Positions 193 to 19,034 of a stretch of DNA of 53,078 nt are shown one piece after another. A model generated the notes under the pieces. The model did not search any database and was not told the DNA's origin. It saw only the letters and a program-made list of their open reading frames with translations. Source of the DNA: a virus (lineage: Duplodnaviria; Caudoviricetes); IMG/VR virus record IMGVR_UViG_3300033067_001252, positions 1-53,078 of that record, one strand, 5' to 3'. Both the position numbers and the translations under genes were made by a program. Every line of letters begins with the position of its first letter. The stretch's first letter is position 1.

Positions 193-441
193 TTACCTCA
201 GTAGCTTCGCAATTGACTCCCACGTGTGAAACGTGCATTCCACAAGATACGCGATTCCCTCGTGTTCCTCAAGGATATGAAGCGTAAACGACTTCCCATG
301 GTTCTCAGGCCACGCACCGTAGGCATCTTGGAAATATTGTGCCCACCCCAAAACCGTTTCATGGGGGAAGTCACTCAGAGGAACCTGGATTAAATCCCGT
401 TCCACGTCATAGACCGCGAGGGTCATCAAGAGCTTAGGCAT
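193..441 (-). CDS. Hypothetical protein (82 aa)
   Basis: ORF with AGGAG RBS, in operon with 450-689. Confidence 0.75.
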   Translation of the reverse strand: MPKLLMTLAVYDVERDLIQVPLSDFPHETVLGWAQYFQDAYGAWPENHGKSFTLHILEEHEGIAYLVECTFHTWESIAKLLR

Positions 442-449
442 TGTTTCTC

Positions 450-689
450 CTATTCGATAACAGGAATCCAGCGTAAGCTATTGTCTTGCATGGTTCCACC
501 GTTAGCCTCGTAATCAGCATACGATTGTGCATAGACCTCACCCAAATAATCCGCATAGGGGTGAGGAGTCTTGCTAATAGCCTTTTTTGCGTCCGTTGCC
601 CTAACTCTAGCGATTGGGCGTCCCTCTGGCGACCAAAACAATATCCACCATGTTTTATGCTGTGTCATAAAGCCTCCATCTAAACCCAC
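450..689 (-). CDS. Hypothetical early protein (start may be MTQHK at 668)
   Basis: ORF track; GGAGG upstream of the internal ATG; VRATDAKKA motif. Confidence 0.7.
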   Translation of the reverse strand: MGLDGGFMTQHKTWWILFWSPEGRPIARVRATDAKKAISKTPHPYADYLGEVYAQSYADYEANGGTMQDNSLRWIPVIE

Positions 690-789
690 CTTCGTTTACG
701 AGCAAAGATGAGGTTAGTACAGTCTCTATGATTTATGTACTATCAGGAACTATTCGATTGTCAAGGATCTACTCAACACACCTTCAAAA

Positions 790-807
790 GTGTAATCCAC
801 CTTACAC
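790..807. promoter_or_regulatory. Operator-like palindrome GTGTAA-N6-TTACAC
   Basis: Perfect inverted repeat; related copies at 1044-1061, 1130-1147 and 49856-49873. Confidence 0.6.
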
Positions 808-983
808 TCCAAGCGTCTCAGGGAGTAGTGGCCGCATTTAAGGGTTGATCCTCACCGGATGGGGTGCCAAAAGGGGTTAAATTTTCAAAGGGTTGAACTT
901 TTGACGGTTTGCGCGGTATCCTAAACGTAACGCGCGGGAGAGGGTGAAGCGTAAGGTCATGTTCATCATCACCTTACATAACC

Positions 984-1012
984 ATCATATCCGATCCCGC
1001 CCGGAATGTCAA
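984..1012 (-). promoter_or_regulatory. Sigma70-type promoter, leftward
   Basis: TTGACA (1012-1007), 17 bp, TATGAT (989-984). Confidence 0.8.
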
Positions 1013-1043
1013 TACCCCAGCGTTAAAAACTTAAATCTTTTTT

Positions 1044-1061
1044 CTGTAACCTACCTTACAG
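1044..1061. promoter_or_regulatory. Operator-like palindrome CTGTAA-N6-TTACAG
   Basis: Perfect 6-bp arms with 6-bp spacer, just upstream of the leftward -35. Confidence 0.6.
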
Positions 1062-1129
1062 TAGCCCCCATCCGCCCACATAAGTTCTGTAGTCCCCCTA
1101 ACGTAGCGCAAAATGACGTAGCCTAAATT

Positions 1130-1147
1130 GTGTAATCTCGCTTACAC
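1130..1147. promoter_or_regulatory. Operator-like palindrome GTGTAA-N6-TTACAC
   Basis: GTGTAATCTCGCTTACAC followed by TCC, as in the 790 copy. Confidence 0.6.
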
Positions 1148-1335
1148 TCCCAACGGTGCGGCACCACCTACCCTTCACAACCTAGCTAGTACAAGCTATC
1201 TATCATCTCTAAGTGGTTGAAAATGAAAGGGTTATTAAGGCGCCCCTACCATCCCAACGTACAAAAGTGTACAAATTAAATGCGCCTATATACCCAGATG
1301 TCTATGTATCCCCTAAGTTAGTATCCACTAATGTG

Positions 1336-1381
1336 GTAAATTTTACATGGTTCCCTAAGAGGTGTGTAATTTTTACATGGT
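1336..1381. repeat. Two direct repeats GTAA(A/T)TTTTACATGGT, 30 bp apart
   Basis: 1336-1351 and 1366-1381, 15 of 16 positions identical. Confidence 0.75.
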
Positions 1382-1410
1382 CCACCACCATTCACCCCCA
1401 GGTGTGCCCA

Positions 1411-1500
1411 CATTCGTTAGACCATCATTCGTTTGAACAAAGATCGTTGGAACAATGATTGTTTAAACAATAGTCGTTGCAACATATATCGTTACCACAA
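1411..1500. repeat. Six tandem degenerate 15-bp units, consensus nnnTCGTTnnAACAA
   Basis: cattcgttagaccat / cattcgtttgaacaa / agatcgttggaacaa / tgattgtttaaacaa / tagtcgttgcaacat / atatcgttaccacaa. Confidence 0.85.
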
Positions 1501-1744
1501 GGAAATACCCACTTTAGGGGAAGGTTCCAAACGAACTGTAAGCCACCCCACAGACCCCTGAGTGTAAGGTTGCCCACAGTGGTACGGGGAGAGAGGGCAT
1601 TGCCCTCTGACGTTGAGCCTTGGCTTTAATAGAATTCCAAATTTAGGGTAAATTTTGTGGCGGAAATTTTGTTTATAGCGAAAACCTCCCCTTGGAATAA
1701 AATTTTTTAATAAAAATTCCAAAACGAGGGGTTAGAATGGGGTC

Positions 1745-2500
1745 ATGGATAAGATGGACCAGGAAAAGGCGCTGGCGATTTTGGGGGCTATAGTTTCCCC
1801 CGGCACTACGATTGCGTCCCTCGGGTTAAATTCTTTAATGCCCCCCAAGGACGAATTTGAAAATAGTGTTTTTTCGCGTTTAGTAACCGACCCTCAAGGG
1901 AAGCCCCAAAGGACTGCGATGGGGGAAATGGAGATTCTTCCAGAAAGCGTAAGTGAGGGCGCGTTTTGGAAGAAAGGTTCCCCGATGCTCCCGAGGTTTT
2001 TGAAACCAGAAACCAAACTTTCCCCCACCACTCAGCAAAGGCTAGCGGAGGAGATTTTCAGGATGGTTCAGAAGACGCCCCCGGAGAGACAGATGAGTGC
2101 GGCAAAAGCGGCACTTGATTTAAATTCTAAACTTCCGGCAACGAAGGGGAAAAGCGTAACTGGGGCGGATATCCAAAAACTTGCGAAGGAAAGCGGATCA
2201 CAAAGCAAAGCGGCGGGGGAAGTGAATGGCCTTAGATTACTTCAAAGAGCACTCGCGAATAAATCCATCTACCACGGGTATAAAACAAATGAGGGGAGAA
2301 ATGTTTTATGGCAGGAGGCGTTTAAAGGACCCAAAGAAGCGGCGGATGTGAGGAACGCGATGGTGGATCGGAGAGTAGCTAAGAATGTGGCGACCCCCGA
2401 TGAGAAGCAAGAGTATGACCTCAGGATGAATGCTCAAAGGGACCCACTAGACGCTTTTGCGGAAACACTTAGGATGCTGGGTTTGAAGCCGCCGAATTAG
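1745..2500 (+). CDS. Hypothetical protein (251 aa), possibly leaderless
   Basis: Long ORF; TAGAAT (1733-1738) lies 6 nt before the ATG and there is no clear SD. Confidence 0.85.
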   Translation: MDKMDQEKALAILGAIVSPGTTIASLGLNSLMPPKDEFENSVFSRLVTDPQGKPQRTAMGEMEILPESVSEGAFWKKGSPMLPRFLKPETKLSPTTQQRLAEEIFRMVQKTPPERQMSAAKAALDLNSKLPATKGKSVTGADIQKLAKESGSQSKAAGEVNGLRLLQRALANKSIYHGYKTNEGRNVLWQEAFKGPKEAADVRNAMVDRRVAKNVATPDEKQEYDLRMNAQRDPLDAFAETLRMLGLKPPN

Positions 2501-2501
2501 A

Positions 2502-2528
2502 GCTAAGTTGTTGATTCTAAAGAACTTA
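2502..2528. promoter_or_regulatory. IHF-consensus site, copy 2
   Basis: Minus strand AATCAACAACTTA; TAAGTT...AACTTA inverted ends. Confidence 0.55.
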
Positions 2529-2714
2529 TCGTAATACAGGGGGGTTGGGTGGGGGTAAGTAGAACTAAGTTGTGTAGTAAAAAGACTCTCATATATTCCA
2601 AAAAGGAAGGAAGCGTAGCGTAGGGTTACTAGGCTAGCGTTCCCTTCCCTTCCGGGTTTTGGGGTCAATTCCATAATACCACGCTGTAGTCTTAAATTTT
2701 TAAATCCTCACGGA

Positions 2715-2723
2715 TGTTAGAAT
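2715..2723 (+). promoter_or_regulatory. Extended -10 promoter for the structural operon
   Basis: TGtTAGAAT just upstream of the AGGAG RBS of 2750. Confidence 0.55.
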
Positions 2724-2749
2724 CTGAATAGGAGAAAAACTCTTTTTAA

Positions 2750-3160
2750 ATGGCAACATCATACGTCGGTTCTTTCACGCCAGCAGGTGACGGTATCTCA
2801 TGGGTTACTGTAGCCAACCGCAACGGCACTATTTCTGGCACCTCAATTACCCTTCCCACAAATGAACAAACGGGTAATTTTCTAATCTACGCGGCCATTG
2901 AACGCTGCCGTAGGGCAATTATGAACGCCTTCTCAGCAGGCACCATTAACGAGAACTCTACTGTTTTGTGCTCCATGACGGTAGATAACAACGCGGACCC
3001 AATCACCTATACCTCTACTGCAACCTACGGAGGTGCTATCACAGGTGGGACCACCATCACCCTGCCAACGAACGAAACGGGAACCTCAACCCTCCCCTTC
3101 ATGGCGGCATTTGAGCGCTGGTCCCGAGCAGTTCTAAATGACCGGAGTGCGGGTAACTAA
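2750..3160 (+). CDS. Hypothetical, probably virion-associated protein with an internal two-fold repeat
   Basis: ITLPTNE...AA(I/F)ER..RA..N..SAG occurs twice; AGGAG RBS. Confidence 0.85.
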   Translation: MATSYVGSFTPAGDGISWVTVANRNGTISGTSITLPTNEQTGNFLIYAAIERCRRAIMNAFSAGTINENSTVLCSMTVDNNADPITYTSTATYGGAITGGTTITLPTNETGTSTLPFMAAFERWSRAVLNDRSAGN

Positions 3161-3171
3161 GGAGAAATAAA

Positions 3172-3450
3172 ATGCCTCTACCAAAAACAGCACAATCTTA
3201 TATCTTCTACACGGAAAAAACCGTAACTCCCGGCCAAATTGCCCTCGGAGGTTGCCTAGATGTGAACGTAAGCGCCACCAAGGCCCAGCCCACACATTTC
3301 TTTCAAGTCCAAATCCCCGCCCTCCACTCCGCTATCGGTATCGTGGATGCAAAATGCCTTAGCGCGGGTGTTGTGATAGTCCGCCTGATGAACCCCACCG
3401 GAAGCGCAATTACCCCCGCAGCCGGAACGTGGAAGATTCTAGCCCGCTAA
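3172..3450 (+). CDS. Small beta-rich putative structural/decoration protein
   Basis: AAGGAG RBS; VRLMNPTGSAITPAAGTW motif resembles small phage virion/fibre domains. Confidence 0.8.
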   Translation: MPLPKTAQSYIFYTEKTVTPGQIALGGCLDVNVSATKAQPTHFFQVQIPALHSAIGIVDAKCLSAGVVIVRLMNPTGSAITPAAGTWKILAR

Positions 3451-3462
3451 GAGGAGATTAAA

Positions 3463-3864
3463 ATGTTTAAGAAAACAGGCGCTCTGATCCTCGCCTTAGT
3501 TCTCACCCTAACGTCCGTTTCATTACCAATCTTCGCCGCAAGTGGTTCCTCCAAATTTACCAACGGGGGAACCATTGCTCTTAGCGAAGACATTCAAGTT
3601 GTACCCAGCGTAACTACCGATCTATCCACCACCGACACGTGGGTGTTTCAAATCATGGTCACAAATGTTACATCAAGCGCGGCAACTATAACTGTCCAAG
3701 ACAAAGCCGCCACACCTCGTTATCTCCTACCAACCGTATCCATCGCGGGTAACACCACCTACGTAATCGGTTTCCCAGAGGGGGTGAAGATGAAAAGCGG
3801 TATTACATGGTCAACTGGAACCGCAAGTGCTCTCCAAGCGAGTATTAAAGCAAAGAGGATTTAA
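3463..3864 (+). CDS. Signal-peptide beta-sandwich-like protein, paralog A
   Basis: MFKK plus hydrophobic core plus IFA|ASGS; roughly half identical (by eye) to 4793-5182. Confidence 0.85.
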   Translation: MFKKTGALILALVLTLTSVSLPIFAASGSSKFTNGGTIALSEDIQVVPSVTTDLSTTDTWVFQIMVTNVTSSAATITVQDKAATPRYLLPTVSIAGNTTYVIGFPEGVKMKSGITWSTGTASALQASIKAKRI

Positions 3865-4475
3865 TGAATATTTTAAAGAAACTCTCTGCGACATTCCTAA
3901 TCGTCTTCCTAGCATTCGGGCAAGTTACTTCCATCCCTATGGGAAATGTTTTTGGTGGCGAGAATTTATCATCCGCAGGTGCTATAGCTTATGTTGCTAG
4001 CAGCGGTACACTGACTTCAAATTCATCTTTCACATGGAATGGTACTTATTTATTTTTTCCTCAAAATATGGGTTTCGGATGGTCAGCAAGTGATCGTTTC
4101 ACCGCAAATACCGGAGGTGGCGGGTTTCTTAGATTAACTGCCGCAGGAACGACCATATACAACCTAGATAGAGATTCTTTATCGTGGGCATTTGGTAAAA
4201 GTAATACCACTACAGGGAGTACTGTTCACATTAAGGATGCTACCGCAAGTACAGGAACTACTCTTGTTACCATAGCTAGAGGAGCGGGTCAAACAGCCTC
4301 AAGTACTGTTTTGACTATGGATGGAGTACCTCAGTTTGGAGGTACAAATACCACTGGGGCAGGTTCAGCCCTCTTAGGTGCGAACTCCCCGGCGACCACG
4401 AACACCGCTCCATATACCTGGATTCGCATTGTAACTTCAGACGGTTCGACCGCTTATATTCCCGCTTGGAAATAG
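3864..4475 (+). CDS. Signal-peptide, short tail-fibre-like protein
   Basis: AFG|QVTSIP; G/T/S-rich beta repeats; fibre-tip-like C-terminus PYTWIRIVTSDGSTAYIPAWK. Confidence 0.75.
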   Translation: MNILKKLSATFLIVFLAFGQVTSIPMGNVFGGENLSSAGAIAYVASSGTLTSNSSFTWNGTYLFFPQNMGFGWSASDRFTANTGGGGFLRLTAAGTTIYNLDRDSLSWAFGKSNTTTGSTVHIKDATASTGTTLVTIARGAGQTASSTVLTMDGVPQFGGTNTTGAGSALLGANSPATTNTAPYTWIRIVTSDGSTAYIPAWK

Positions 4476-4487
4476 AAAGGAAATTAA

Positions 4488-4784
4488 ATGCCAAAGTTAA
4501 ACCTCAAAATCGACATCGGAGTTGATACTCAAAAATTTGAATTCCCCGCAGAGTTCGTAGATGCGGCCACTCAATTTATTGCCACCCAAATTACGGGCAC
4601 CCCACCTGTAGCAAAATACCCGGATGTCCATTCTCTTATTGTGGCTCTTATCGAATCCCTTGGTGATGCTATCCTAGAACTCTTCCCTCAAAGCGCCCAA
4701 GCCACCGCCAAAGCCGCCAAGGAAGCGGATCAGTTAACCCAAGCGACAAAGAAGAATGAGTATAAAAAAGCCACAAAGGTTTAA
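4488..4784 (+). CDS. Hypothetical protein, possible fibre assembly chaperone
   Basis: 98-aa helical protein directly after the fibre-like gene; AAAGGA RBS; function inferred from position only. Confidence 0.7.
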   Translation: MPKLNLKIDIGVDTQKFEFPAEFVDAATQFIATQITGTPPVAKYPDVHSLIVALIESLGDAILELFPQSAQATAKAAKEADQLTQATKKNEYKKATKV

Positions 4785-4792
4785 ATTTTAAA

Positions 4793-5182
4793 ATGTTAAA
4801 GATATTCGCAATCGTGGCCCTCACCATCTTATTTGTGGTGGGGGTTATTAACCCGTTAATTGGCGCATCAGGCTCCACCCGTTTCAACTACGGAAGCTAC
4901 ACCCTCACAGATTCCATCCAAACTGTTCCCACTTCCCCCACTTCGTTAAGTTCCTCGGATACCTATGTATTCCAGATTACAGTTACAAACATAACGGGAA
5001 GTGATGCCACCTTCACAGTTACAGACGGTAGTGGAAAATACCTATTCGCAGGTGTAACCGTGGGGGCAAATACCACTTACGTGATGGCATTCCCCGAGGG
5101 TCAAAAAATGTCTTCCGGCCTCTCCTGGTCCTCAGGAACCTCTAATGCCCTCCAAGCCTCTGTTCGTGCGCGTAGGACTTAA
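4793..5182 (+). CDS. Signal-peptide beta-sandwich-like protein, paralog B
   Basis: LIG|ASGS; shares VFQIxVTN, NTTYVxxFPEGxKM and ALQAS with 3463-3864. Confidence 0.85.
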   Translation: MLKIFAIVALTILFVVGVINPLIGASGSTRFNYGSYTLTDSIQTVPTSPTSLSSSDTYVFQITVTNITGSDATFTVTDGSGKYLFAGVTVGANTTYVMAFPEGQKMSSGLSWSSGTSNALQASVRARRT

Positions 5183-5187
5183 CGAAA

Positions 5188-6831
5188 ATGCGTAAATTCA
5201 TCGCCGCTGGAATTGGGATCGCGTTCCTCTTATGTGGAATCTACTTCCCCACTGGTGCCCAAATTTCATCAATCCCCGCCGCTAAGGGAGGTGGAGTCGT
5301 CCAAGCCTACCAAACAATTATGGACGAAGCTATCGCTCTATTCCAGCGCACCACGGTTAATTTCACCGGAAGCGGTATCACTTGTGTGGATAACCCCGGA
5401 TCAAGCCGCACCGATTGTACCGTGGGTGGTGGCACAACTTCTTCCGCAAATATCACTGACCTTGCAGTGACGAAAGATTCCTCCACGGTTCTAGACGTAG
5501 CAACTGGTATCTGGGGCCATGGAACCGCTTCAATGGCCACTCACGCGGGCACGAAAATCAATATCACTTCGCTAAGCATCTCTGCGGCCACAAACGCGAG
5601 TCCTATTGTTCTCACCACCTCGGATATGTCCGCCACTTCGGTACGCACTGGGGATACTGTAACCGTAGCTGGTGTGGGTGGCAATACCGCCGCTAATGGA
5701 ACTTGGGTTGTTGAAAAAGCCTCGAACACTTCGTTAAAACTCATCGGCTCCGTAGGAAGTGGCTCTTATACCTCAGGCGGCACAGTAGCAGGTACCGGAA
5801 GTGGGACCGCTTACATTTACGGAACCCCCCAAGGATACGTAACCATCGATTCTCCCGTAGCCGCAGCCCTAATCCTAACCTGCCCCACGGTATGTGTGAT
5901 GAACCAATCCACAACCCCCGCAGTACCAGATAACGGAACCCCCTTCGCGTCCGTTACAATCTCTTCTGGCGCATGGGGGACTGTAACTGACACTCGTAGA
6001 TTTCTTAATAGCGGCGCATCCGTAACTGGTGGAGATGGAATAACTATTTCTACCGCCGCTGGTGAGTCCGCAATTTCCGTAGACTCCACCGTAGCCCGCA
6101 CCTCAGGATCAAACTCATTTACAGGTTCCAACTCCTTCCTCGCCGCCACGTCAACGGCCCCCAACAGATCAGGTTCCGGTGCTCCTGGTGGCTCATGCTC
6201 CACTGGTGAAACTTATTTCCGCACCTCAGGGGTTACAGCGGGGCAAAATTTATATCTCTGCACTGCGCTCAATACCTGGACCCAAGTAACCGGAACCGGA
6301 GGCTCAACCCAAATCGTAACCTACCGTCTCCCCTTCACCGCTTCTACCGCCGATACCTCCGGTCGTTTCGCAATGCTTTGGAACACATCCCTGAACGTAA
6401 CCGCCGCTGGAAGAGATGCTACTGGAGGCACTTGCCCAACCACAAGTTCTCTCGCTGAGTGTGGCCTCATCTGGTATTCCACAGGAGTGGCCACCCAATC
6501 TTACGCCACCCATGATGTGATGATGCCCACTGGTTGGTCTTCCGGCACCGCTACGTTTTTCCTAACCTTTGGTGTAACCTCCACCGATGATCCCCAATGG
6601 CAGGTAAAAACGAAGTGCCTAACAAGCGGTTCTGCTCCAGGTGCGTTTAACTCAACCCAAAATCTCCCCACTGGGGCTGTCGTTGCGGGGAATATTTACA
6701 CCCGTAGTATCTCCCTAACCACAACGGGATGCGCCGCAAATCGCCCCATGATTATCTCCCTCACTCGTACTGATTCCGGGGGTGGATATGCGATTGTCTT
6801 TGACGGATTCGTAGAAATTCAGGTTCAATAA
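5188..6831 (+). CDS. Signal-peptide, T/S/G-rich multi-domain fibre/adhesin-like protein
   Basis: TGA|QISSIP; ISAATNASPIV...TGDTVTVAGV.GNTAANGTW module (E1-FCCH-like beta domain seen in phage tail proteins); 10 Cys in neighbouring pairs. Confidence 0.8.
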   Translation: MRKFIAAGIGIAFLLCGIYFPTGAQISSIPAAKGGGVVQAYQTIMDEAIALFQRTTVNFTGSGITCVDNPGSSRTDCTVGGGTTSSANITDLAVTKDSSTVLDVATGIWGHGTASMATHAGTKINITSLSISAATNASPIVLTTSDMSATSVRTGDTVTVAGVGGNTAANGTWVVEKASNTSLKLIGSVGSGSYTSGGTVAGTGSGTAYIYGTPQGYVTIDSPVAAALILTCPTVCVMNQSTTPAVPDNGTPFASVTISSGAWGTVTDTRRFLNSGASVTGGDGITISTAAGESAISVDSTVARTSGSNSFTGSNSFLAATSTAPNRSGSGAPGGSCSTGETYFRTSGVTAGQNLYLCTALNTWTQVTGTGGSTQIVTYRLPFTASTADTSGRFAMLWNTSLNVTAAGRDATGGTCPTTSSLAECGLIWYSTGVATQSYATHDVMMPTGWSSGTATFFLTFGVTSTDDPQWQVKTKCLTSGSAPGAFNSTQNLPTGAVVAGNIYTRSISLTTTGCAANRPMIISLTRTDSGGGYAIVFDGFVEIQVQ

Positions 6832-6832
6832 A

Positions 6833-8998
6833 ATGTTCCTCACTCTCGCCTTTCTAAACCTCCTCTTGGGGGCTCAGACTATTTACACCGTTTGTGCCTC
6901 GGGTTGTACTTACACAAACACAATCGTGGGGCTCCAAAATGCGGTAACGGACATCCCATGTGGTGGGATTATCGAAATCACAGCGGGCCAATCTGTGACC
7001 AACACCACGGGCTCACCGTTGTTTTTAAAATACAAAAGCGGTTGTGCGACCTACACCACAATCCGATCTTCTGGCGTTGGAGCACTTGCTCTTGGCGCGC
7101 GAGTAACCCCTTCCGATACCGCAAAACTCGCTAAATTAACCGTAGGCTTCGGTCCCTATGCGGTTATTACAAACGAAGTTGACCCCGTAACAAAAAATGG
7201 TGCGGCTTGGTGGAAATTTCACGGAATCGAGATAACCGCCTATAACGGGTTCATGGGGGATTTAGTTGAATTCGGTTCCCGTTCCCCTACGCTCGATTAC
7301 GTTAATGATAATGAGATTAAAAACCTCGCCCATCACATTTATTTTGACCAATGTTATTTCCACGGAGATTCGACTAGCACAGATGGCCCCCGTAGAGGAA
7401 TCCGCGCAAATCTCGCCTCAATGACGGTCACAAATTCCTGGTTTGAGAACTTTAAAAATCAAAACGGAGAATCAAACGCCATAGGTGGGTGGAATTCTCT
7501 TGGACCGTTTTTATTCAAAAACAACCACTTTGAAGCGGTCGCCATCACAACCCTTTTCGGTGGGGCTCAACCAAACATCTCAGGACTTCGCGCGAATGGG
7601 TTATTCTTCCTTGGTAATCACTACTACCGCTCCTGGAAATACCGCGTCCGTTACCAAACCGTAAACCCGTCAGGAACCTGCCTATGGGATTCCAACGGGG
7701 GTGAATACTACCAAAACACCTCAAACGGAACTTACTGGAGGTGTGATGGCGGAGTGTGGACCTCAATCCTCGCCGCAAACTTTTCCCCCTATTACTGGCA
7801 AAAGAATATTTTTGAACTCAAAAACTCTTGGCGAACATTCGTGGAGGGAAACTACTTCGAGAACGCATGGAACCCCGCCACTCAAAATCAATATGGCGCG
7901 ATGTTCCTTTTCAATCTCGTAGACAACGACCCCCCAGCCGGAACCGTTGAACCCTTCGCCACGGTAGGTTACGTGAAGATTAAAAACAACTACGGACGCC
8001 GCACCCCTTGGCTAGCCTCCTTGGGCTCCATCGGTGGTCCTTACTACCTCTGGCATAATAATTTATCTTTTGAAAATAACGTCTTTGAAGAAATCGGAGA
8101 TTCCCCCTACACTCTCCCAGCGGCGGAAACCAATGGCTCCAAGTGGGGCGGAAATTTTATGGCCTTCCCCGCAAATGCAATTAACGTCTCCTATTCATTC
8201 AACACCTTCATATCCCGAAACCCAATCGAAGCCAGATCTGCGTATCTCTTCGGAACCCCACTTTCGAGCCAAACAACTCAAGCGGGAATTATGGGGAATA
8301 TCTTCTCTTGGAACAAATACGGGGTTTATAACGATAACGACGGGGGGAGTTTATGGAATTCTATTTCAAATGGATTCGCCGTAGGATATAACATAGGCCG
8401 AAATGTGGTGATTAACAACGAATCCTTAAGCATCTACGGACGGCCCTCTCCGATTGTAAACATTGCGTATAACGTAGAAAGCCCCTCAACCCCTATGCCT
8501 TGTGTTGGTTCCACAAATGAAATGACTGGCACCGGGGCTACATATAACGGTAACTGCGGCTTCCCATCCTCTAATTCCGCCGTTGGTTTCCTTGATTACG
8601 CCTCTCATAACTACACCCTAGATAGCTCCTCTGGGTACCGTCGATGGGGACCACTTGGAAAAGATCCTGGGGCAAGATTTCCTATCGTCACATGGTCTAC
8701 CGCTGGGGTGTCTGTTTCAAACGCAACTCTCCCCACGTTTTTAAATTTTGAAATCAAATCCGCTAAGGCCACTTCGTCAAAGATAACCTTTACCTACACC
8801 GCGTATGATTCCTCCACATGCGACCTTATTGTGAGTGCTTACCCGGATTTATCCTCTCCCACAACGGTAACTGATTCCGGGGGGTATCTAGACCGCTCCA
8901 CGGAGGTAACTGGACTCGCCGCGAACACTCGGTATTACTGGAGGGCGTTATGTGCGGGGACTTATTACCGAGAAGGTATAGCTCTAACGAATCCTTAA
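6833..8998 (+). CDS. Signal-peptide right-handed beta-helix (pectin-lyase-like) protein with a C-terminal FN3-like domain; candidate tailspike/depolymerase
   Basis: TVCASGC..LQNAV cap; Asn-ladder repeats (VTNSWFEN, FKNNHFE, VEGNYFEN, FENNVFE); C-terminal VTGLAANTRYYWR. Confidence 0.75.
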   Translation: MFLTLAFLNLLLGAQTIYTVCASGCTYTNTIVGLQNAVTDIPCGGIIEITAGQSVTNTTGSPLFLKYKSGCATYTTIRSSGVGALALGARVTPSDTAKLAKLTVGFGPYAVITNEVDPVTKNGAAWWKFHGIEITAYNGFMGDLVEFGSRSPTLDYVNDNEIKNLAHHIYFDQCYFHGDSTSTDGPRRGIRANLASMTVTNSWFENFKNQNGESNAIGGWNSLGPFLFKNNHFEAVAITTLFGGAQPNISGLRANGLFFLGNHYYRSWKYRVRYQTVNPSGTCLWDSNGGEYYQNTSNGTYWRCDGGVWTSILAANFSPYYWQKNIFELKNSWRTFVEGNYFENAWNPATQNQYGAMFLFNLVDNDPPAGTVEPFATVGYVKIKNNYGRRTPWLASLGSIGGPYYLWHNNLSFENNVFEEIGDSPYTLPAAETNGSKWGGNFMAFPANAINVSYSFNTFISRNPIEARSAYLFGTPLSSQTTQAGIMGNIFSWNKYGVYNDNDGGSLWNSISNGFAVGYNIGRNVVINNESLSIYGRPSPIVNIAYNVESPSTPMPCVGSTNEMTGTGATYNGNCGFPSSNSAVGFLDYASHNYTLDSSSGYRRWGPLGKDPGARFPIVTWSTAGVSVSNATLPTFLNFEIKSAKATSSKITFTYTAYDSSTCDLIVSAYPDLSSPTTVTDSGGYLDRSTEVTGLAANTRYYWRALCAGTYYREGIALTNP

Positions 8999-9014
8999 AG
9001 AATTAAATATTTAA

Positions 9015-10913
9015 ATGGCAAAAGAATTATTAGATGAGATCCAAAAGAATGACAAAGTGGATCTCCTCAAGTTATCCCCCAAGGAGATAAATTCCCTTCG
9101 TTTATCAAGGTGGCGCGCTAGAACGGATCTCCTTTACCTCGTAAATAATGTTCTAGAAAAACCCGATGTAAATCAGGATTTTAACGGTCCCCTCATTGAC
9201 CTCCTTCAAAAGTTCCCCAAACCCAAGACAAAGGAAGAAGCGTTTGAAAAAGACAAGTTTGTGGAAGGAAAATGGCTCTATACCCCCGTTCAGCCAAATA
9301 TCGAACTCCTCCAAGGCCCACGAAGACGGTTAATTCTCGATTTTCGCGGATCTTGGAAAACCACAATCAATTGTGAATGCCATTCCATTCAATGGCTCTT
9401 AAATTACCCCACCGCTTGTCTCGCGATTTTCCAGTATAAACTTGAAAAAGCGGAAACGATTCTTAAGGCCATTAAGGAACATTTCCAGTTTAATGGAAAA
9501 TTCCGAGCCCTATTCCCTGAGTTATGTCCTCCACCGGAGAAAATCTATGAATACGGAACTAAGGCTCACTTTGACATCTGGGATATAGAGCACAAGCGTA
9601 AATCCACACGTAGGGAAAAAAGTGTGATGGCGGCTTCCCTTGACGCTGGACTCGCGGGATATCACTTTGAAATTTGTAAATACTCTGACGTGGTGGAACC
9701 TGAAAACACGGAGACTCTCGAACAGTGCCAAAAGACAATTGATAAATTTGGCAAGGCCGAATACCTCCTCATTGGTTTAGGCTACTGGATTGACGTAGAG
9801 GGAACCCGCTATCACTTTGGAGATCTCTATGGGAATATCCTCAACCGTAGGGCTAACCAGATAAAGAAACTCGGGAAAAGCGAATGGGAGGTTTACTGTC
9901 GTGGAATCTTCATGCCGGACATGGACCCTAAGGAACGTAAGTACACTCCAGAGGAACTCGCTTTACCGGATAAAAAGGATGAGAAGGGCCTTCCGATTCC
10001 ATCTTTTCCCCCAAACCTCGCCGGAAGATTTGGCTCCACAGAAAAGTTACTCTTGAACGCAGAAGAAGATCCAACCAACTTCGCGGCCCAAATGCGTAAT
10101 AACCCTATCGGCGGCAGAGGTGGTGTTCCAGATTTCCCAATCCTAATGAAGGGGGAAAAGTTTGATCGCCCCTGCGTTATACCCTCTTCGGACTACAAAA
10201 TAATGCCAAAAGCGTATTCAATTTTAAGTGTGGACTTCGCGGAAACCGTCTCCGAACGTGCAAACTGGACCGTATTCTCCCACGCCACAATAAATCGAAT
10301 GGGGGAAACTTTTGTGGATATGATCGTTAGAGAGAAATGGCAGCCACATGAGAGTGTGAAGGCGCTTATTAAATTCTGTAATGACCTAAAGCCCACTTAT
10401 CTCGTGATGGAGGAAGTAAACTTCACCCGTGGTCTAAGAGTAGCCATCGAAGGGGAATGGCAACAGAATCCGTACAACTATAAGCCAACGATAAGGTGGA
10501 CCAAACGGCCCGCGAATAAAGAAAAAGAAGAACGAATCCGCCTCACCCTCCAACAACCATATAAACTCGGAACTCTAAAATTCGTTAAAGATCATATAAT
10601 GCCTTCCGCGTGGGAGGGTTTACTCCAGGAACTTCGGGAATTCCCCCGCTCCACCTCAGACGACATTTTAGATTCCATCTCCGACATCTACGACACTAGG
10701 GATTGGTTCGGAAAGGAATGGGGAAAACCCATAGTCCCTAATGAATTCATCCACGTGATGAACGACCCCGGCGCACAAGCCGAATGGAATGCTCTCATTG
10801 GTAACGTTCCTATGGAAATCTCCCCCCTGACAACGGATTCCACAAACATCCTGACTCCAGATAATCTAATCGATTCGTTTTACGCAAATTTTAAATCCCC
10901 TCCAGGGTGGTAA
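9015..10913 (+). CDS. terL: Terminase large subunit
   Basis: Walker A-like FRGSWKTT; GYHFEICKYSDVV Walker B region; EGTRYHFGDLYG; RNase H-like LSVDFA and FPRSTSDDILDS; upstream of portal. Confidence 0.92.
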   Translation: MAKELLDEIQKNDKVDLLKLSPKEINSLRLSRWRARTDLLYLVNNVLEKPDVNQDFNGPLIDLLQKFPKPKTKEEAFEKDKFVEGKWLYTPVQPNIELLQGPRRRLILDFRGSWKTTINCECHSIQWLLNYPTACLAIFQYKLEKAETILKAIKEHFQFNGKFRALFPELCPPPEKIYEYGTKAHFDIWDIEHKRKSTRREKSVMAASLDAGLAGYHFEICKYSDVVEPENTETLEQCQKTIDKFGKAEYLLIGLGYWIDVEGTRYHFGDLYGNILNRRANQIKKLGKSEWEVYCRGIFMPDMDPKERKYTPEELALPDKKDEKGLPIPSFPPNLAGRFGSTEKLLLNAEEDPTNFAAQMRNNPIGGRGGVPDFPILMKGEKFDRPCVIPSSDYKIMPKAYSILSVDFAETVSERANWTVFSHATINRMGETFVDMIVREKWQPHESVKALIKFCNDLKPTYLVMEEVNFTRGLRVAIEGEWQQNPYNYKPTIRWTKRPANKEKEERIRLTLQQPYKLGTLKFVKDHIMPSAWEGLLQELREFPRSTSDDILDSISDIYDTRDWFGKEWGKPIVPNEFIHVMNDPGAQAEWNALIGNVPMEISPLTTDSTNILTPDNLIDSFYANFKSPPGW

Positions 10914-10940
10914 AATCACTATAGGAGGAGTTTTGTTAAA

Positions 10941-11180
10941 ATGTCTTGGCTTAAAAACGTAGGAAAAGGTCTTGGAAAGGTGGGATTTGGCCTCAAAGCC
11001 GCCCTAGGTTCCTCCATCGCACTCGATCTCGCGGAAACTTTAGCGAAATCCAACCCGGATGTGCCCCCAGCGATATCCCATGTGGCAGCACTCATCGTTC
11101 AGGGGTTAATAATTTACAAAATGGCGAACAACAACCCCGATGGGACCCCCGCCACCACCCCTTATAAGAAGGAAAATTAA
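10941..11180 (+). CDS. Small membrane-associated protein, holin-like candidate
   Basis: Amphipathic N-terminus, hydrophobic HVAALIVQGLIIY, C-terminal NPDGTPA; AGGAGG RBS. Confidence 0.6.
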   Translation: MSWLKNVGKGLGKVGFGLKAALGSSIALDLAETLAKSNPDVPPAISHVAALIVQGLIIYKMANNNPDGTPATTPYKKEN

Positions 11181-11188
11181 AAATTTAA

Positions 11189-13465
11189 ATGCCCGAATAC
11201 GGAACAGTGCCGGAAGTTGAGCAGATTTCTCTATCGAATGAACCGTTTAAATTCTCCACGGAACAATTAACGGAGTCCTATGCGCTCACACAAGTTCTTC
11301 AAGATTTTTATTGGTACGAAAGGGAGCGCCAAAGTTCGGAACGACGCTGGAGATTAAATGACGCCCTCTATTGCGCCTATGTAGAACCCCGGTATTGGCC
11401 GAACACGAAGCTCATGAGGTCAAATCTCGGGGCTGGAATCGTGAGTGAACAAGTGGAAGCCGCCTATGCAATGCTTTGCCAAGCGCTTTTCACCCAACCG
11501 GAGTATTTTTCCATTGAATCCGACGTGGGGGGTGATCCAAAAGCGGCCCGAGCACAGGGGGCTTATATGGATTATGCGTTTAATTACCCCCAGCTAACCC
11601 AATTAAGCGCGGAAGTGGAGTATAAAAACGCGGCGAAGGATCAGTTGCTCTACGGGGCGGGTATTCTTAAGGTAGAGTTCAACTCCGATCTCAAATTACC
11701 TTATATAACCCGTAAGGACCCTCGAAATATCTACTTCGATCCCGCCACTCCAGGGCCTTTTATCGACCGTTCTCGCGCGGTTATCGAAAGAACGTTCCTC
11801 ACTATCGAAGAACTTGAGAAATTTCGCGCCGATAAGCGAATGTATGTCCCCTCAAATGACATTCTATGGACCCTCGCTCAAGGAGTTAACAAAACGGATG
11901 GTGATCGGGGTAAAGAATATAAGGAATCCCTCCACGGGGTTATGTATTCCATCGGCGCAAGTGATAATTCCCCCGTTCCATCACAAAAGAAAATCGAACT
12001 CCTTCAGTATTACTCGAAAAATCAAATTATTTGGATTTTAAACCGCAAAATCGTGATGTACAAGGACGAAAACATTTACGGGTTCATTCCCTACGTCCTT
12101 ATCCCTTGTTACGTCTACACTGGTAGTCCTTATTCTCTTTCGATAGCGGATATGCAGGAATCCAACCACCGTTATCTAGAATCCCTCGTAAATGCCCGCT
12201 TAGATCAGGTCACACTTTCCCTATTCCCCCCACGGGCAGTTCCTAGGGGCTTTATGTTCACCCCTCAAATGCAAACTTGGGGGCCTGGGTCAATGTACCA
12301 GATGGAAAACCCGGATCAATTCAACGCGATCACCCCCCAAGATACAACAAAGGATATTTTCCAAGAGATTGGATACATCCAGAACACTGCGGATAGACGA
12401 ACGGGAATTAATTCCATGTTAAGCGGAATGCCTTCCCCGTCAAACGCGAATCGAACCGCTCAAGGTGTTAATTCTCAGCTTCAGGGGTCCGCCATTAGGC
12501 TCTATCCTATTGTTGATAATTTCGAAAACTATGGGATTATCCCCTCGGTGTGGAAGGCCCTTAAAATAAGTGAAATCCATTTAACCTCAAATGACGCAGT
12601 TCCAGGGGTTTTAAGGGACCAAAATAACCCCGAGGAAGTTCAATTCATCCGTATCTCTGCCGAAGCGTTTAAACAAAACACCCGTGTGCGTTGTAGAGCC
12701 GCCTCAAAGATGCTCTCCCGAGATCGATTAACTCAAATGTACCAATTTGTTGCCCAAAATGTGATGAACGGGCAAGTGATCGGGATGTTGAATCAAAGCG
12801 GCCAAACTGTGGATTTCTCCGAATTAATCCAAATGTTAATGGACGCCACTGGCGTACCTCGTCGTTACCAAATCATCCGTCCCCTAAGCGATCAAGAAAA
12901 GCAGTTCATGCAGCAACAACAACAAGCCCAGGAACAGGCAAAGCAACCTGGGGAAATGGCAAAGGCCCAACTCGAAGCCCAAACCCGCCTCCAAATGGGC
13001 CAAATGAAAGCCCAGGGGGAACAGCAGAAAAACCAAGTTGCTTTACAAATCGCGCAAATGAAATCCTCTGGCCCCACCCCTGAGGAAATCCAAATGGAAC
13101 AAATGAAGAACCAAATGGAGATGGCTCTTAAGAGTAAGGACATGGAGATGAAGGACCAAGATATGCGCTCTAAAGAAGCCGTAGCGAGGTTGAAAATCTT
13201 CATGGATCAAGCTAAACTAAGAGCTAAGCAGGGAGAATTACAAATGAAGGCCCAAGAGGGTCAAATGGGACTCGCCGCAAAACGCCAAGAAATGGGGATG
13301 AATTTACAAACTAAAGCCCTCATGAACCGCCAAGCGTTAACCCACTCCCAGGAGGCCCATGAACAGAAACTCGAATTAAAAGAAAGTGAGCCCCGAGTTA
13401 ACTCCGTTAGAGTTCGTAAGAGTGCCGTTCAAACGGATCGTAAACGAGGGGATAAGAAGAGTTAA
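11189..13465 (+). CDS. Portal protein (P22-like) with a long Q/M/K-rich coiled-coil barrel
   Basis: YGAGILKV, DPRNIYFDP, IPYV..P, ADRRTGI...SG, RTAQGV motifs; position after terL. Confidence 0.92.
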   Translation: MPEYGTVPEVEQISLSNEPFKFSTEQLTESYALTQVLQDFYWYERERQSSERRWRLNDALYCAYVEPRYWPNTKLMRSNLGAGIVSEQVEAAYAMLCQALFTQPEYFSIESDVGGDPKAARAQGAYMDYAFNYPQLTQLSAEVEYKNAAKDQLLYGAGILKVEFNSDLKLPYITRKDPRNIYFDPATPGPFIDRSRAVIERTFLTIEELEKFRADKRMYVPSNDILWTLAQGVNKTDGDRGKEYKESLHGVMYSIGASDNSPVPSQKKIELLQYYSKNQIIWILNRKIVMYKDENIYGFIPYVLIPCYVYTGSPYSLSIADMQESNHRYLESLVNARLDQVTLSLFPPRAVPRGFMFTPQMQTWGPGSMYQMENPDQFNAITPQDTTKDIFQEIGYIQNTADRRTGINSMLSGMPSPSNANRTAQGVNSQLQGSAIRLYPIVDNFENYGIIPSVWKALKISEIHLTSNDAVPGVLRDQNNPEEVQFIRISAEAFKQNTRVRCRAASKMLSRDRLTQMYQFVAQNVMNGQVIGMLNQSGQTVDFSELIQMLMDATGVPRRYQIIRPLSDQEKQFMQQQQQAQEQAKQPGEMAKAQLEAQTRLQMGQMKAQGEQQKNQVALQIAQMKSSGPTPEEIQMEQMKNQMEMALKSKDMEMKDQDMRSKEAVARLKIFMDQAKLRAKQGELQMKAQEGQMGLAAKRQEMGMNLQTKALMNRQALTHSQEAHEQKLELKESEPRVNSVRVRKSAVQTDRKRGDKKS

Positions 13466-19033: not shown

Positions 19034-19034
19034 A

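What the first reader, a model, noticed from the sequence alone, without database searches (positions are those of the whole stretch)
3463..8998. Candidate new system: phage fibre/spike-like proteins carrying Sec signal peptides and paired cysteines
Seen: five of six consecutive genes directly upstream of terL begin with a signal-peptide-like leader (IFA|ASGS, AFG|QVT, LIG|ASGS, TGA|QIS, LGA|QTI). The predicted mature 547-aa protein has 10 Cys in five neighbouring pairs, and the 721-aa beta-helix has 11 Cys, mostly paired. Known: tailed-phage virion proteins normally fold and assemble in the reducing cytoplasm without signal peptides. Inference: these appendages are exported, oxidatively folded in the periplasm and joined to particles during or after lysis. 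Alternatively they are displayed or released by the infected cell as adhesins, receptor blockers or matrix depolymerases.
Basis: partly seen in the sequence, partly recalled or inferred. Interest (0 to 1): 0.82.

Follow-up and report, generated by a model that had tools for sequence, protein, structure and literature searches.

The report
Phage fibre proteins carrying export signals
A soil phage, and several relatives, put secretion signals on proteins that look like its tail fibre and sugar-cutting spike, so these proteins probably fold outside the cytoplasm, which is not how tailed-phage appendages are known to be made.

Summary
Five of the six genes before terL (3463-8998) begin with Sec-type leaders: a basic start in 4 of 5, 13-21 uncharged residues, A or G at -1, no twin-arginine, no lipobox. 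Only 7 of 77 ORFs in the contig have such an N-terminus.

The leaders persist in every orthologue examined, although their sequence drifts faster than the mature parts.

- **The 547-aa protein** is a predicted homotrimeric fibre with a carbohydrate-binding-module-like tip.
- **The 721-aa protein** is a right-handed beta-helix of the glycanase/lyase kind.
- **The two 129/133-aa paralogues** belong to a virus-dominated family. Its leaderless members start at the predicted cleavage site, and the leader was gained or lost at least 3-11 times.
- **A tail-fibre motif** carries a Cys pair only in Cys-rich proteins, 8 of 10 with a leader, and never in 7 leaderless tail fibres.
- **The 547/721 pair** also sits, with leaders, in a conserved Acidobacteriaceae polysaccharide locus.

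Export and oxidative folding are well supported indirectly. Whether the proteins then dock on virions at lysis (my best guess, about 0.4) or act as a free glycan-processing set (about 0.35) is open. I found no precedent in eight literature searches.

The parts
2750..3160 (+). 136-aa leaderless protein that bounds the cassette upstream. It is conserved in related phages.
   Evidence: 80% identical in L001. N-terminal hydropathy is low. Only weak hits were found: phrog_3923 and DUF7270.
3172..3450 (+). 92-aa leaderless protein, conserved even in distant relatives.
   Evidence: 54% identical in L001. By my reading, it resembles the 92-aa ORF at L100:9202-9480, just upstream of terL; I ran no pairwise comparison.
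3463..3864 (+). Small beta-sandwich-like protein, paralogue A (133 aa). Predicted leader is residues 1-25 and the mature N-terminus is ASGSSKF.
   Evidence: It aligns with paralogue B and 13 homologues, all 15 with a leader. It has no alternative start within 60 codons.
3864..4475 (+). 203-aa short fibre-like protein. Predicted leader is residues 1-19 and the mature N-terminus is QVTSIP.
   Evidence: The N-terminus (residues 1-61) is 53% identical to the 391-aa L001 protein, while the C-termini differ. Its segments recur fused to 547-type modules in P0096-P0099. Its start overlaps the stop of the preceding gene.
4488..4784 (+). 98-aa leaderless protein of unknown role, the only cassette member without a leader.
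   Evidence: 60-78% identical in L001 and L081. No family hit. The Atlas model is poor and gave no usable hit.
4793..5182 (+). Small beta-sandwich-like protein, paralogue B (129 aa). Predicted leader is residues 1-24 and the mature N-terminus is ASGSTRF.
   Evidence: Weak Pfam hits to CarboxypepD_reg and SdrD_B. The profile search found 475 relatives at E<=1e-3. Of the best 150, 57 have a leader and 93 do not.
5188..6831 (+). 547-aa fibre. Parts: leader 1-24; conserved N-terminal trimer segment carrying the tail-fibre motif (about 37-92); E1-FCCH-like beta-barrel (about 125-241); stalk (268-324); CBM-like jelly-roll tip (374-547). The mature part has ten Cys in five neighbouring pairs.
   Evidence: Monomer model pLDDT 64, low over 1-91 and 271-325. 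Trimer of residues 25-330: score 0.77, best of 3 controls 0.00, pLDDT 85-90. VIA-align: CBM36/CBM6/CBM35 at Z 10.8-10.2 and E1 FCCH at Z 10.4. Cys positions.
6833..8998 (+). 721-aa right-handed beta-helix protein. Parts: leader 1-14; helix starting at residue 17; mixed region about 539-640; C-terminal beta-sandwich 640-718. It has 11 Cys.
   Evidence: Model pLDDT 86.3, pTM 0.88. Foldseek top hits are GH136, GH28, PL6, PL9, AlgE4 and phage tailspikes. All 16 full-length homologues have a leader, and 9 Cys are invariant.
9015..10913 (+). Large terminase, 16 nt downstream of the cassette. It marks the start of the head genes.
   Evidence: phrog_38, E 2.3e-42. Gaps between cassette genes run from a 1-nt overlap to 16 nt. 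No + strand terminator-like site lies in 1-11500.

Best explanation
The block 3463-8998 is a late-operon cassette for glycan-targeting phage appendages that are made outside the cytoplasm.

**Shown by sequence or models.** Five proteins carry Sec-type cleavable-looking leaders. One is a predicted homotrimeric fibre with a carbohydrate-binding-module-like tip. One is a beta-helix of the glycanase/lyase fold. One is a shorter fibre-like protein. Two are small beta-sandwich-like paralogues.

**Inferred.** During late infection of a diderm host (probably Acidobacteriaceae), the precursors cross the inner membrane unfolded through SecYEG. Signal peptidase I cuts after A or G. This leaves ASGS..., Q(I/V)(S/T)SIP... 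and QTIYTVC... N-termini. The proteins then fold, trimerise and form disulfides in the periplasm.

**Most speculative step, which I commit to as the single most likely outcome.** When holin and endolysin action breaches the envelope, the periplasmic appendages meet the particles assembled in the cytoplasm and dock as last-step add-ons. They would then serve as the receptor-binding and depolymerising organelles of the virion. Excess enzyme would diffuse away.
For: **Export signal**
- Leader features are canonical and confined to this block.
- Leaders are kept in 16 of 16 homologues of the 721-aa protein, 15 of 15 close small-protein homologues and 18 of 19 homologues of the 547-aa protein. The nineteenth is an N-terminally shorter entry.
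- Leader sequence diverges faster than the mature part: 25% against 47% identity for the 721 family, and 48% against 69% for the small family.
- In L001 the beta-helix is replaced by one only 27% identical, and that one also has a leader.

**Cleavage site**
- Of the best 150 relatives of the small protein, 93 lack a leader (median 108 aa) and 57 have one (median 130 aa). 23 of the leaderless start MAS. Many align from profile position 25, the residue after the predicted cut.
- One leaderless copy was checked at DNA level, at L100:16542-16865.

**Link to disulfides**
- Among 91 hits of the 547 family, the 24 with a leader have a median of 1.95 Cys per 100 aa and the 67 without have 0.63 (Mann-Whitney p 9e-9, not corrected for relatedness).
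- The tail-fibre motif has a Cys pair in 10 proteins (8 with a leader, 1 without a clear leader, 1 in an ambiguous frame). It has no Cys in 7 proteins, none with a leader (Fisher p 0.002).

**Fibre and virion character**
- Trimer score 0.77 against a best of 3 controls of 0.00. That mark was reached by 20 of 30 proteins solved as pairs of one chain and 1 of 23 solved as single chains. The runs share at least 79% of contacts and partner pLDDT is at least 85. The calibration used two copies and other alignments.
- The same motif lies inside an annotated leaderless 1025-aa tail fibre of podovirus MW202697, and in leaderless long proteins that, by gene order alone, I take to be tail fibres (L127-L132).
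- The FCCH-like domain is shared with Baseplate_J and tail proteins.
- N-termini are conserved and C-termini swapped between related phages.
- In the related SU10-adaptor podovirus G703, a 560-aa leader-bearing fibre is the last large gene of the late block.
- No other fibre or spike was recognised in the window's tail module.
- The leader state of the small protein changed at least 11 times counting only branches with SH-aLRT >= 90, and at least 3 times at >= 95. This suggests the protein works wherever it is made, as a last-step add-on could.
Against: - No signal-peptide predictor was run, and no cleavage, export or virion data exist.
- No precedent for Sec-routed appendages of tailed phages turned up in eight literature searches.
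- The 721-aa beta-helix starts at residue 17, so it has no N-terminal particle-binding domain of the kind tailspikes usually carry.
- The 547/721 pair has leader-bearing homologues in a conserved bacterial polysaccharide locus with no terL or portal nearby. Such proteins therefore work without virions.
- The 740-aa and 780-aa tail-module proteins have unknown folds and could be the true receptor binders.
- L125 carries a Cys-rich 1251-aa fibre with the Cys-pair motif but no clear leader. Disulfides therefore need not require export.
- A paper seen only as a search listing reports inter-ring disulfides in a siphovirus tail (PMC13576161).
- In L100 the small protein is leaderless while the neighbouring 710-aa beta-helix has a leader. 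The partners need not share a compartment.
- Host assignment is indirect.
Confidence: 0.4

Rival explanations
1. The proteins form a free exported glycan-processing set and are not virion parts. The fibre binds host exopolysaccharide or LPS and the beta-helix cuts it. They would act on nascent polymer in the periplasm of the infected cell, or outside once lysis releases them. Either way they strip the matrix around neighbouring cells and keep progeny from sticking to debris. The small proteins would be accessory subunits.
For: - Adjacent, overlapping, leader-bearing homologues of the 547/721 pair sit in a syntenic Acidobacteriaceae locus with two GT4 genes, DegT, Gfo/Idh/MocA and a second Beta_helix protein.
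- The closest described analogue, WceF, is a signal-peptide-bearing tailspike-like hydrolase encoded in an EPS cluster (PMC7949094; passages read).
- The beta-helix has no N-terminal anchor domain.
- More distant homologues are bacterial Beta_helix proteins with PKD or CBM6 modules.
- Distant terL relatives (37-39% identity) show no leader-bearing gene just upstream of terL.
- A review notes that halos arise from virions and/or free enzymes (PMC6116005).
Against: - A soluble enzyme kit does not obviously need trimeric fibres with conserved N-termini and swapped tips.
- It also does not explain a shared mature Q(I/V)(S/T)SIP N-terminus on two different fibre-like proteins.
- The fibre motif is otherwise found in tail fibres.
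- The small-protein family was not found in the five bacterial genomes that hold the pair.
- No other receptor-binding protein was recognised in the genome.
Confidence: 0.35
2. The proteins modify the infected cell's surface. Exported fibres and enzyme would mask or destroy receptors, or be displayed as adhesins. This would exclude superinfecting phages or retarget the cell.
For: - Sec-routed phage proteins described so far act on the envelope, for example secreted and SAR endolysins (PMC6116005).
- Exclusion lipoproteins are a further example, recalled and not checked.
- Bdellovibrio displays signal-peptide-bearing mosaic fibres that resemble phage fibres (PMC10769870).
Against: - The genes lie in the late operon, spaced from a 1-nt overlap to 16 nt, and run into terL with no + strand terminator-like site.
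- The phage looks lytic. No portal relative was found in the 301 Acidobacteriaceae-family genomes searched.
- Sec alone reaches only the periplasm of a diderm, and no outer-membrane anchor, lipobox or C-terminal sorting signal was seen.
Confidence: 0.1
3. The hydrophobic N-termini are not cleaved export signals. They would be uncleaved membrane anchors, oligomerisation or docking helices used in the cytoplasm, or artefacts of start-codon choice.
For: - No predictor or experiment supports cleavage.
- The 721-aa leader is short (14 residues) and has no basic residue.
- The models give the leaders low confidence.
Against: - The start contexts match those of other late genes, and gene 3463 has no downstream alternative start.
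- A or G at -1 occurs in 5 of 5.
- Leaderless relatives start at the predicted cut.
- Leaders track cysteine content.
- Leader sequence drifts while hydrophobicity is kept.
- Bacterial homologues carry equivalent leaders.
Confidence: 0.08

Closest known systems
Pantoea stewartii WceF (PMC7949094; passages read)
   Same: It is a beta-helix polysaccharide hydrolase with a tailspike-like fold. It is made with a cleavable N-terminal signal and encoded in an exopolysaccharide locus. This matches the context of the Acidobacteriaceae homologues of the 547/721 pair.
   Different: - WceF uses a Tat signal, so it is exported folded. The leaders here have no twin arginine and look Sec-type.
- WceF has a P22-like N-terminal head domain. 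The 721-aa protein has none.
- WceF is bacterial. The proteins here sit in a phage late operon next to terL.
Bdellovibrio MAT (mosaic adhesive trimer) fibres (PMC10769870; passages read)
   Same: The layout is a signal peptide, then a conserved N-terminal domain, then a trimeric phage-like fibre with interchangeable adhesive tips. The 547/203-aa families show the same layout.
   Different: - MAT fibres are cellular proteins of a predator.
- Many end in an S74 chaperone-protease, which Pfam did not find here.
- The phage cassette adds a beta-helix enzyme and small partner proteins.
Depolymerase tailspikes and tail fibres of podoviruses (P22, HK620, CBA120, Klebsiella phage depolymerases)
   Same: They share the beta-helix fold, a trimeric fibre, a glycan-binding tip and modular exchange of C-termini. 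P22 tailspikes and T4 long fibres are last-step add-ons that attach in vitro (recalled, not checked here).
   Different: Known ones have no signal peptide and fold in the cytoplasm. They usually have an N-terminal particle-binding domain, which the 721-aa protein lacks.
Sec-exported and SAR endolysins (fOg44 Lys44; review PMC6116005, passages read)
   Same: These are proteins of tailed phages routed through the host Sec system before lysis.
   Different: They are lysis enzymes acting on the wall, not fibre- or spike-like proteins. Nothing suggests peptidoglycan activity in this cassette.

Membership tests
Sec-type (signal peptidase I) signal peptide | Basic n-region | tested here: met
   Net charge is +1 to +2 in 4 of 5. 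The 721-aa leader has none, but 9 of its 15 homologues have K or R near the start (my count from the alignment).
Sec-type (signal peptidase I) signal peptide | Hydrophobic h-region of about 7-15 or more residues | tested here: met
   The uncharged stretch is 13-21 residues, of which 10-16 are strongly hydrophobic. The best 8-residue window scores >= 2.48 in all 16 rows of A1 and all 15 rows of A4.
Sec-type (signal peptidase I) signal peptide | Small residue at -1 and a tolerated residue at -3 | tested here: met
   -1 is A or G in 5 of 5. -3 is I, A, L, T and L. The sites are read by eye and by alignment with leaderless relatives.
Sec-type (signal peptidase I) signal peptide | Actual export and cleavage, or the score of a trained predictor | not testable with these tools
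   No SignalP, DeepTMHMM or proteomic data were available.
Tat signal peptide | Twin-arginine motif in the n-region | tested here: not met
   No RR in any of the five leaders.
Lipoprotein (signal peptidase II) signal | Lipobox with Cys at +1 | tested here: not met
   No Cys at +1. C16 in the 547-aa leader is absent from the L001 and L081 orthologues.
Right-handed parallel beta-helix glycanase/lyase superfamily | Beta-helix fold | tested here: met
   Model pLDDT 86.3 with strands from residue 17 to about 530. Foldseek hits to GH136, GH28, PL6, PL9 and AlgE4 have E 1e-6 to 1e-4, with TM-score normalised to the query of 0.4 or below.
Right-handed parallel beta-helix glycanase/lyase superfamily | Match to the family profile (Pfam Beta_helix PF13229) | tested here: inconclusive
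   The window protein has no Pfam Beta_helix hit at E<=0.1. Distant homologues at 25-34% identity carry PF13229.
Right-handed parallel beta-helix glycanase/lyase superfamily | Catalytic residues and substrate | not tested
   No close solved relative was found from which to transfer an active site.
Phage tailspike | N-terminal particle-binding domain ahead of the helix | tested here: not met
   The helix begins at residue 17, right after the leader.
Phage tailspike | Homotrimer present in virions | not testable with these tools
   Three copies exceed the size limit of the complex tool, and no virion data exist.
Phage tail fibre | Homotrimeric, intertwined shaft | tested here: met
   Residues 25-330 in three copies scored 0.77 against a best of 3 controls of 0.00. 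The mark was reached by 20 of 30 proteins solved as pairs of one chain and 1 of 23 solved as single chains. The runs share at least 79% of contacts and partner pLDDT is at least 85. The interface covers the segments that a monomer leaves disordered. This is a model, not a measurement.
Phage tail fibre | Shares modules with established tail fibres | tested here: met
   The motif lies inside the annotated 1025-aa tail fibre of MW202697 and in leaderless long proteins of L127-L132. The FCCH-like domain co-occurs with Baseplate_J and Phage-tail_3.
Phage tail fibre | Incorporated into the virion | not testable with these tools
   The phage is uncultured. No relative was found among 50,697 GenBank phage records for the 721-aa protein or for two leaderless small-family members.
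WceF-like EPS-locus enzyme | Encoded within a polysaccharide biosynthesis locus | tested here: not met
   This is met for the bacterial homologues. It is not met for the window proteins, which lie in a phage late operon.

The most novel reading that the evidence does not exclude
Tailed-phage morphogenesis has a periplasmic branch. In several lineages of environmental SU10-adaptor-type podoviruses, and in at least one unrelated freshwater phage, the receptor-binding fibres and spikes would go through Sec. They would be disulfide-bonded in the periplasm and perhaps modified there using glycans built by the phage's own methyltransferase/glycosyltransferase cluster. They would dock on cytoplasmic particles only when the envelope is breached. 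Leaders have been gained and lost repeatedly, so routing of last-step add-ons would be an evolvable trait.
Probability: 0.35. Interest if true: 0.9.

Novelty: new variant of a known kind. Interest (0 to 1): 0.74.

Why it matters
Appendages of tailed phages are taught as cytoplasmic products. A conserved, repeatedly evolved Sec route for fibre- and spike-like proteins would matter in four ways.
- It would add an assembly or deployment step that depends on the host's export and disulfide machinery. Sec, signal peptidase and Dsb would become new host factors and possible resistance points.
- It would explain how soil phages obtain oxidation-stabilised glycan-binding proteins.
- It would blur the line between tailspikes and bacterial matrix-trimming enzymes.
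- It would warn annotators not to dismiss signal-peptide-bearing genes in structural modules as morons.

Recombinant production of such depolymerases and fibres would also need periplasmic or oxidising expression.

Tried and rejected

**Family libraries**
- Pfam, PHROGs and NCBIfam gave no confident family for any of the six cassette proteins.

**Related phages and leaderless contexts**
- Two metagenome-contig scans found nothing: the terL alignment and the leaderless small-protein cluster.
- A viral-contig scan with that cluster also found nothing.
- Two alignments were too divergent to scan with.
- As a result, only one genomic context of a leaderless small protein was seen (L100).

**GenBank phages**
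- No match for the 721-aa protein or for two leaderless small proteins.

**Bacterial genomes**
- The leaderless profile found nothing in 401 Acidobacteriota genomes.
- The portal found nothing in 301 Acidobacteriaceae-family genomes.
- So no prophage relative and no direct host link were obtained.

**Other possible receptor binders**
- PDB sequence searches for the 740-aa and 780-aa tail proteins gave only chance-level hits.
- The 921-aa leader-like protein of G703 shows no similarity to either.
- Whether the tail module holds other receptor binders therefore stays open.

**Atlas searches**
- The small protein gave only unnamed viral clusters.
- The 98-aa protein gave nothing usable.

**Ideas considered and dropped**
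- Lipoprotein, Tat, pilin-type and C-terminal sorting signals: no motif found (and by eye).
- Coordinated gain of leaders across the whole cassette: contradicted by L100, where a leaderless small protein sits beside a leader-bearing beta-helix.

Full report
**What the window is.** The window is the whole record, a single 53,078-bp virus contig with no terminal repeat. A + strand late operon runs from about 1745 to 35242.
- It holds terL (phrog_38, E 2.3e-42) and a portal.
- It holds a major head protein, a methyltransferase, GT1 and GT2 glycosyltransferases and an SU10-type adaptor.
- It ends with large cysteine-free proteins that I take to be ejection proteins.

The minus strand carries replication genes: a DnaB-like AAA_25 protein, a family A polymerase, a PD-(D/E)XK nuclease and an RNA ligase. 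The phage is far from anything cultured. The best GenBank terL matches are 23-26% identical, one of them in Tunturiibacter phage Tunturi_3.

**The observation.**
- The five leaders have a basic start in 4 of 5, 13-21 uncharged residues and A or G at -1. None has a twin arginine or a lipobox.
- Only 7 of 77 ORFs have such an N-terminus, and five of them fall in this six-gene run. P is about 4.5e-4 over all possible runs.
- The ATG starts sit in the same A/T-rich context as terL and portal. One gene has no alternative start within 60 codons.
- Genes are spaced from a 1-nt overlap to 16 nt and run into terL. No + strand terminator-like site lies in 1-11500, which is weak evidence because site counts were below the shuffle mean.

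**Are the leaders kept in relatives?** Yes.
- Related phage contigs L001 (terL 78% identical) and L081/G001 (73%) carry the same cassette, with leaders on every counterpart.
- All 16 full-length homologues of the 721-aa protein (33-61% identity) have a hydrophobic leader followed by TVCASGC.
- All 15 close small-protein sequences have one.
- 18 of 19 members of the 547 family have one. The exception begins inside a later domain. Three bacterial entries have the leader further in because the ORF was called from an upstream start.
- Leader columns are less conserved than mature columns: 25% against 47% identity, and 48% against 69%. Hydrophobicity is retained. This is the usual behaviour of signal peptides.
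- In L001 the beta-helix is replaced by one only 27% identical, and that one also has a leader. The C-terminal halves of both fibre-like proteins are also swapped there.

**What the proteins are.**
- *The 721-aa protein.* It models confidently (pLDDT 86.3, pTM 0.88) as a right-handed beta-helix that begins at residue 17, followed by a C-terminal beta-sandwich. Its structural neighbours are glycoside hydrolases, polysaccharide lyases, an alginate epimerase and phage tailspikes. No one family stands out.
- *The 547-aa protein as a monomer.* It models poorly over residues 1-91 and 271-325.
- *The 547-aa protein as a trimer.* Three copies of residues 25-330 scored 0.77, against a best of 3 controls of 0.00. 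That mark was reached by 20 of 30 proteins solved as pairs of one chain and 1 of 23 solved as single chains. The runs share at least 79% of contacts and partner pLDDT is at least 85. The interface covers exactly the segments that are poor in the monomer. The calibration used two copies and other alignments, so these counts hold only roughly, and the model supports binding without showing it.
- *Its domains.* The tip (374-547) resembles CBM36, CBM6 and CBM35 jelly rolls (Z 10.8-10.2). Residues 125-241 resemble the E1 FCCH barrel (Z 10.4). In other proteins that domain co-occurs with Baseplate_J and Phage-tail_3.
- *The 203-aa protein.* It shares the mature N-terminus Q(I/V)(S/T)SIP with the 547-aa protein. 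Its segments occur fused to 547-type modules in other metagenomic proteins.
- *The 98-aa protein.* It has no leader and remains unexplained.

**The small-protein family is the most informative part.**
- A profile of the 129/133-aa paralogues finds 475 relatives at E<=1e-3. The nearest Atlas clusters are 80-98% viral.
- Of the best 150 relatives, 57 have a leader (median 130 aa) and 93 do not (median 108 aa). 23 of the leaderless ones start MAS. Many align from profile position 25 to their residue 2, which is the predicted cleavage site.
- I verified one leaderless copy in DNA, at L100:16542-16865. It lies directly after the major head gene of a phage whose terL is 39% identical.
- I built a tree from the last 100 residues only, using 137 rows: 51 with a leader, 75 without and 11 ambiguous. 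I left out 14 of the best 150 hits because they were shorter than 86 aa or longer than 140 aa, and added the window's 129-aa protein.
- On that tree the leader state changes at least 23 times. It changes at least 11 times if only branches with SH-aLRT >= 90 are trusted, and at least 3 times at >= 95. Shuffled labels give means of 39.8, 20.1 and 6.6. The tree is of a short, divergent family, so the lower figures are the safe ones.

**Leaders go with cysteines.**
- Among 91 hits of the 547 family, the 24 with a leader have a median of 1.95 Cys per 100 residues. The 67 without have 0.63 (p 9e-9, not corrected for relatedness). Several apparent exceptions are truncated or mis-started entries.
- The N-terminal tail-fibre motif allows a sharper test. 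It reads roughly Y-x-T-I-x-D-E-G-x-x-L-x-Q-R-x-x-x-N-F-x-G-x-G.
- The motif carries a Cys pair in 10 proteins. Eight have a leader: the window protein, L001, L081, P0091, P0109, L122/L123, L124 and MW202637. One has no clear leader (L125) and one lies in an ambiguous frame (L126).
- The motif carries no Cys in 7 proteins, none with a leader: MW202697 and L127-L132. Fisher p is 0.002.
- The leaderless proteins include an annotated 1025-aa tail fibre that lies upstream of terL in a 45-kb podovirus.
- L125 shows that a Cys-rich fibre can exist without a clear leader.

**Cellular relatives.**
- The best cellular homologues of the 721-aa protein (33-40% identity) are in four Acidobacteriaceae MAGs and one Bryobacteraceae MAG.
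- In each Acidobacteriaceae MAG a homologue of the 547-aa protein lies immediately upstream. In the Bryobacteraceae MAG (L005) it lies about 5 kb upstream. No terL or portal is nearby.
- In the Acidobacteriaceae the locus is syntenic. It holds a sigma/anti-sigma pair, the fibre-like gene, the beta-helix, a protein that looks PEP-CTERM-like by eye, GT4, Gfo/Idh/MocA, a second Beta_helix protein, DegT and another GT4.
- The small-protein family was not found in those five genomes. It was found in 6 of 301 genomes of the same family. Two of those sites were examined, and both lie beside other leader-bearing Cys-rich proteins. One of the two also lies next to a methyltransferase-glycosyltransferase fusion and a transglycosylase-like protein.
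- These matches are the only basis for proposing an Acidobacteriaceae host. That these bacteria are diderm is textbook knowledge and was not tested here.

**Breadth of the phenomenon.**
- G703 and G704 are other SU10-adaptor-type or similar podoviruses. In both, a leader-bearing fibre with the Cys-pair motif is the last large gene of the late block (560 aa and at least 1219 aa). G703 also has a 921-aa leader-like, 10-Cys protein right after the adaptor.
- G703 has a methyltransferase, two GT2 genes and a GT1 gene between the head gene and the adaptor. The window has an equivalent cluster. G001 has the two GT genes only. G704 appears to have one by eye. L001 lacks the cluster although it has the leader cassette.
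- A GC-rich freshwater phage, MW202637, has a run of leader-bearing proteins, one with the Cys-pair motif, at the end of its structural block.
- Phages whose terL is 37-39% identical show no leader-bearing gene just upstream of terL. L100 nevertheless has a 710-aa leader-bearing beta-helix after its head genes.

**Mechanism.**
- I regard export plus periplasmic oxidative folding as well supported (about 0.8) but unproven.
- For the final step I favour docking of the exported fibre and spike on particles when the envelope is breached (0.4). The reasons are the tail-fibre modules, the trimer, the conserved mature N-termini with swapped tips, the position of such genes where fibres normally lie, the absence of any other recognisable receptor binder, and the freedom with which the small protein switches route.
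- The main rival is a free glycan-processing set of the WceF kind (0.35). It rests on the bacterial locus and on the missing anchor domain of the beta-helix.
- Surface modification or exclusion (0.1) and non-export (0.08) are less likely.

**Literature.**
- Eight searches found no report of Sec-routed fibres or spikes in tailed phages. The library is limited to open-access papers and preprints.
- I read passages of PMC7949094 (WceF), PMC10769870 (MAT fibres), PMC6116005 (review covering secreted and SAR endolysins and free enzymes in halos), PMC11924767 (Tunturi phages; its main text does not contain 'signal peptide', 'tail fiber' or 'depolymerase') and PMC5384007 (methods mention only).
- All other papers were seen as search listings only. 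Supplementary files were not consulted.

Noticed in passing
window 17218-19739 (+): A methyltransferase (Methyltransf_23/_11), a GT1 and a GT2 gene sit between the head genes and the adaptor. Similar clusters occur in G001 (two GTs), G703 (MTase, two GT2, one GT1) and, by eye, G704. An MTase-GT fusion lies next to a leader cassette in the bacterial locus L117. L001 lacks the cluster. A possible link to glycosylation of the virion or of the exported fibres is untested.
   Followed up: partly
window 47629-47991 (-): A 120-aa protein matches the Tlde1 domain (E 4.5e-12, above the Pfam cut-off), an L,D-transpeptidase-like fold. It may be the phage's wall-acting enzyme.
   Followed up: no
window 43335-43577 (-): An 80-aa ORF among the early genes has a hydrophobic segment at residues 11-29. 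It is the only credible leader- or TM-like N-terminus outside the cassette.
   Followed up: no
window, starts of late genes (for example 9015, 11189, 13474, 3463, 4793): Start codons are preceded by a recurrent TAAA/TTAA(A) context rather than a uniform Shine-Dalgarno sequence. Several also have GGAG/AGGA 8-12 nt upstream.
   Followed up: partly
L100:8288-8767 and window 2750-3160: Leaderless small proteins lie upstream of terL. The L100 one contains an FCCH-like stretch (ATPIVLT...GDLVNVVGALGNTNANGTF), read by eye. The window one has an internal repeat (ITLPTNE twice).
   Followed up: no
L001:3-365 (-) and L001:3566-3955 (+): The contig end carries an inverted, nearly identical partial copy of the small-protein gene, followed by a 273-aa fibre-like ORF on the minus strand. 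This could be an invertible or duplicated fibre segment, or an assembly artefact.
   Followed up: no
L119 (MW202637.1) 1388-7055: An unrelated freshwater phage has five or six consecutive late proteins with leader-like N-termini. One has a lipobox-like LLGAMGC. They lie just before small membrane proteins that look like a lysis cassette.
   Followed up: partly
L095, L097, L099, L101, L102 (contig ends 300-630 nt upstream of terL); G001 contig end inside the short fibre gene: Many related metagenomic contigs break inside or next to the cassette. This is expected if the region is hypervariable within populations.
   Followed up: no
L003:12180-12887 (-): A 235-aa protein next to the bacterial beta-helix ends in PEP, then a hydrophobic stretch, then basic residues. 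By eye this is PEP-CTERM-like. NCBIfam gave no hit at E<=0.01.
   Followed up: partly
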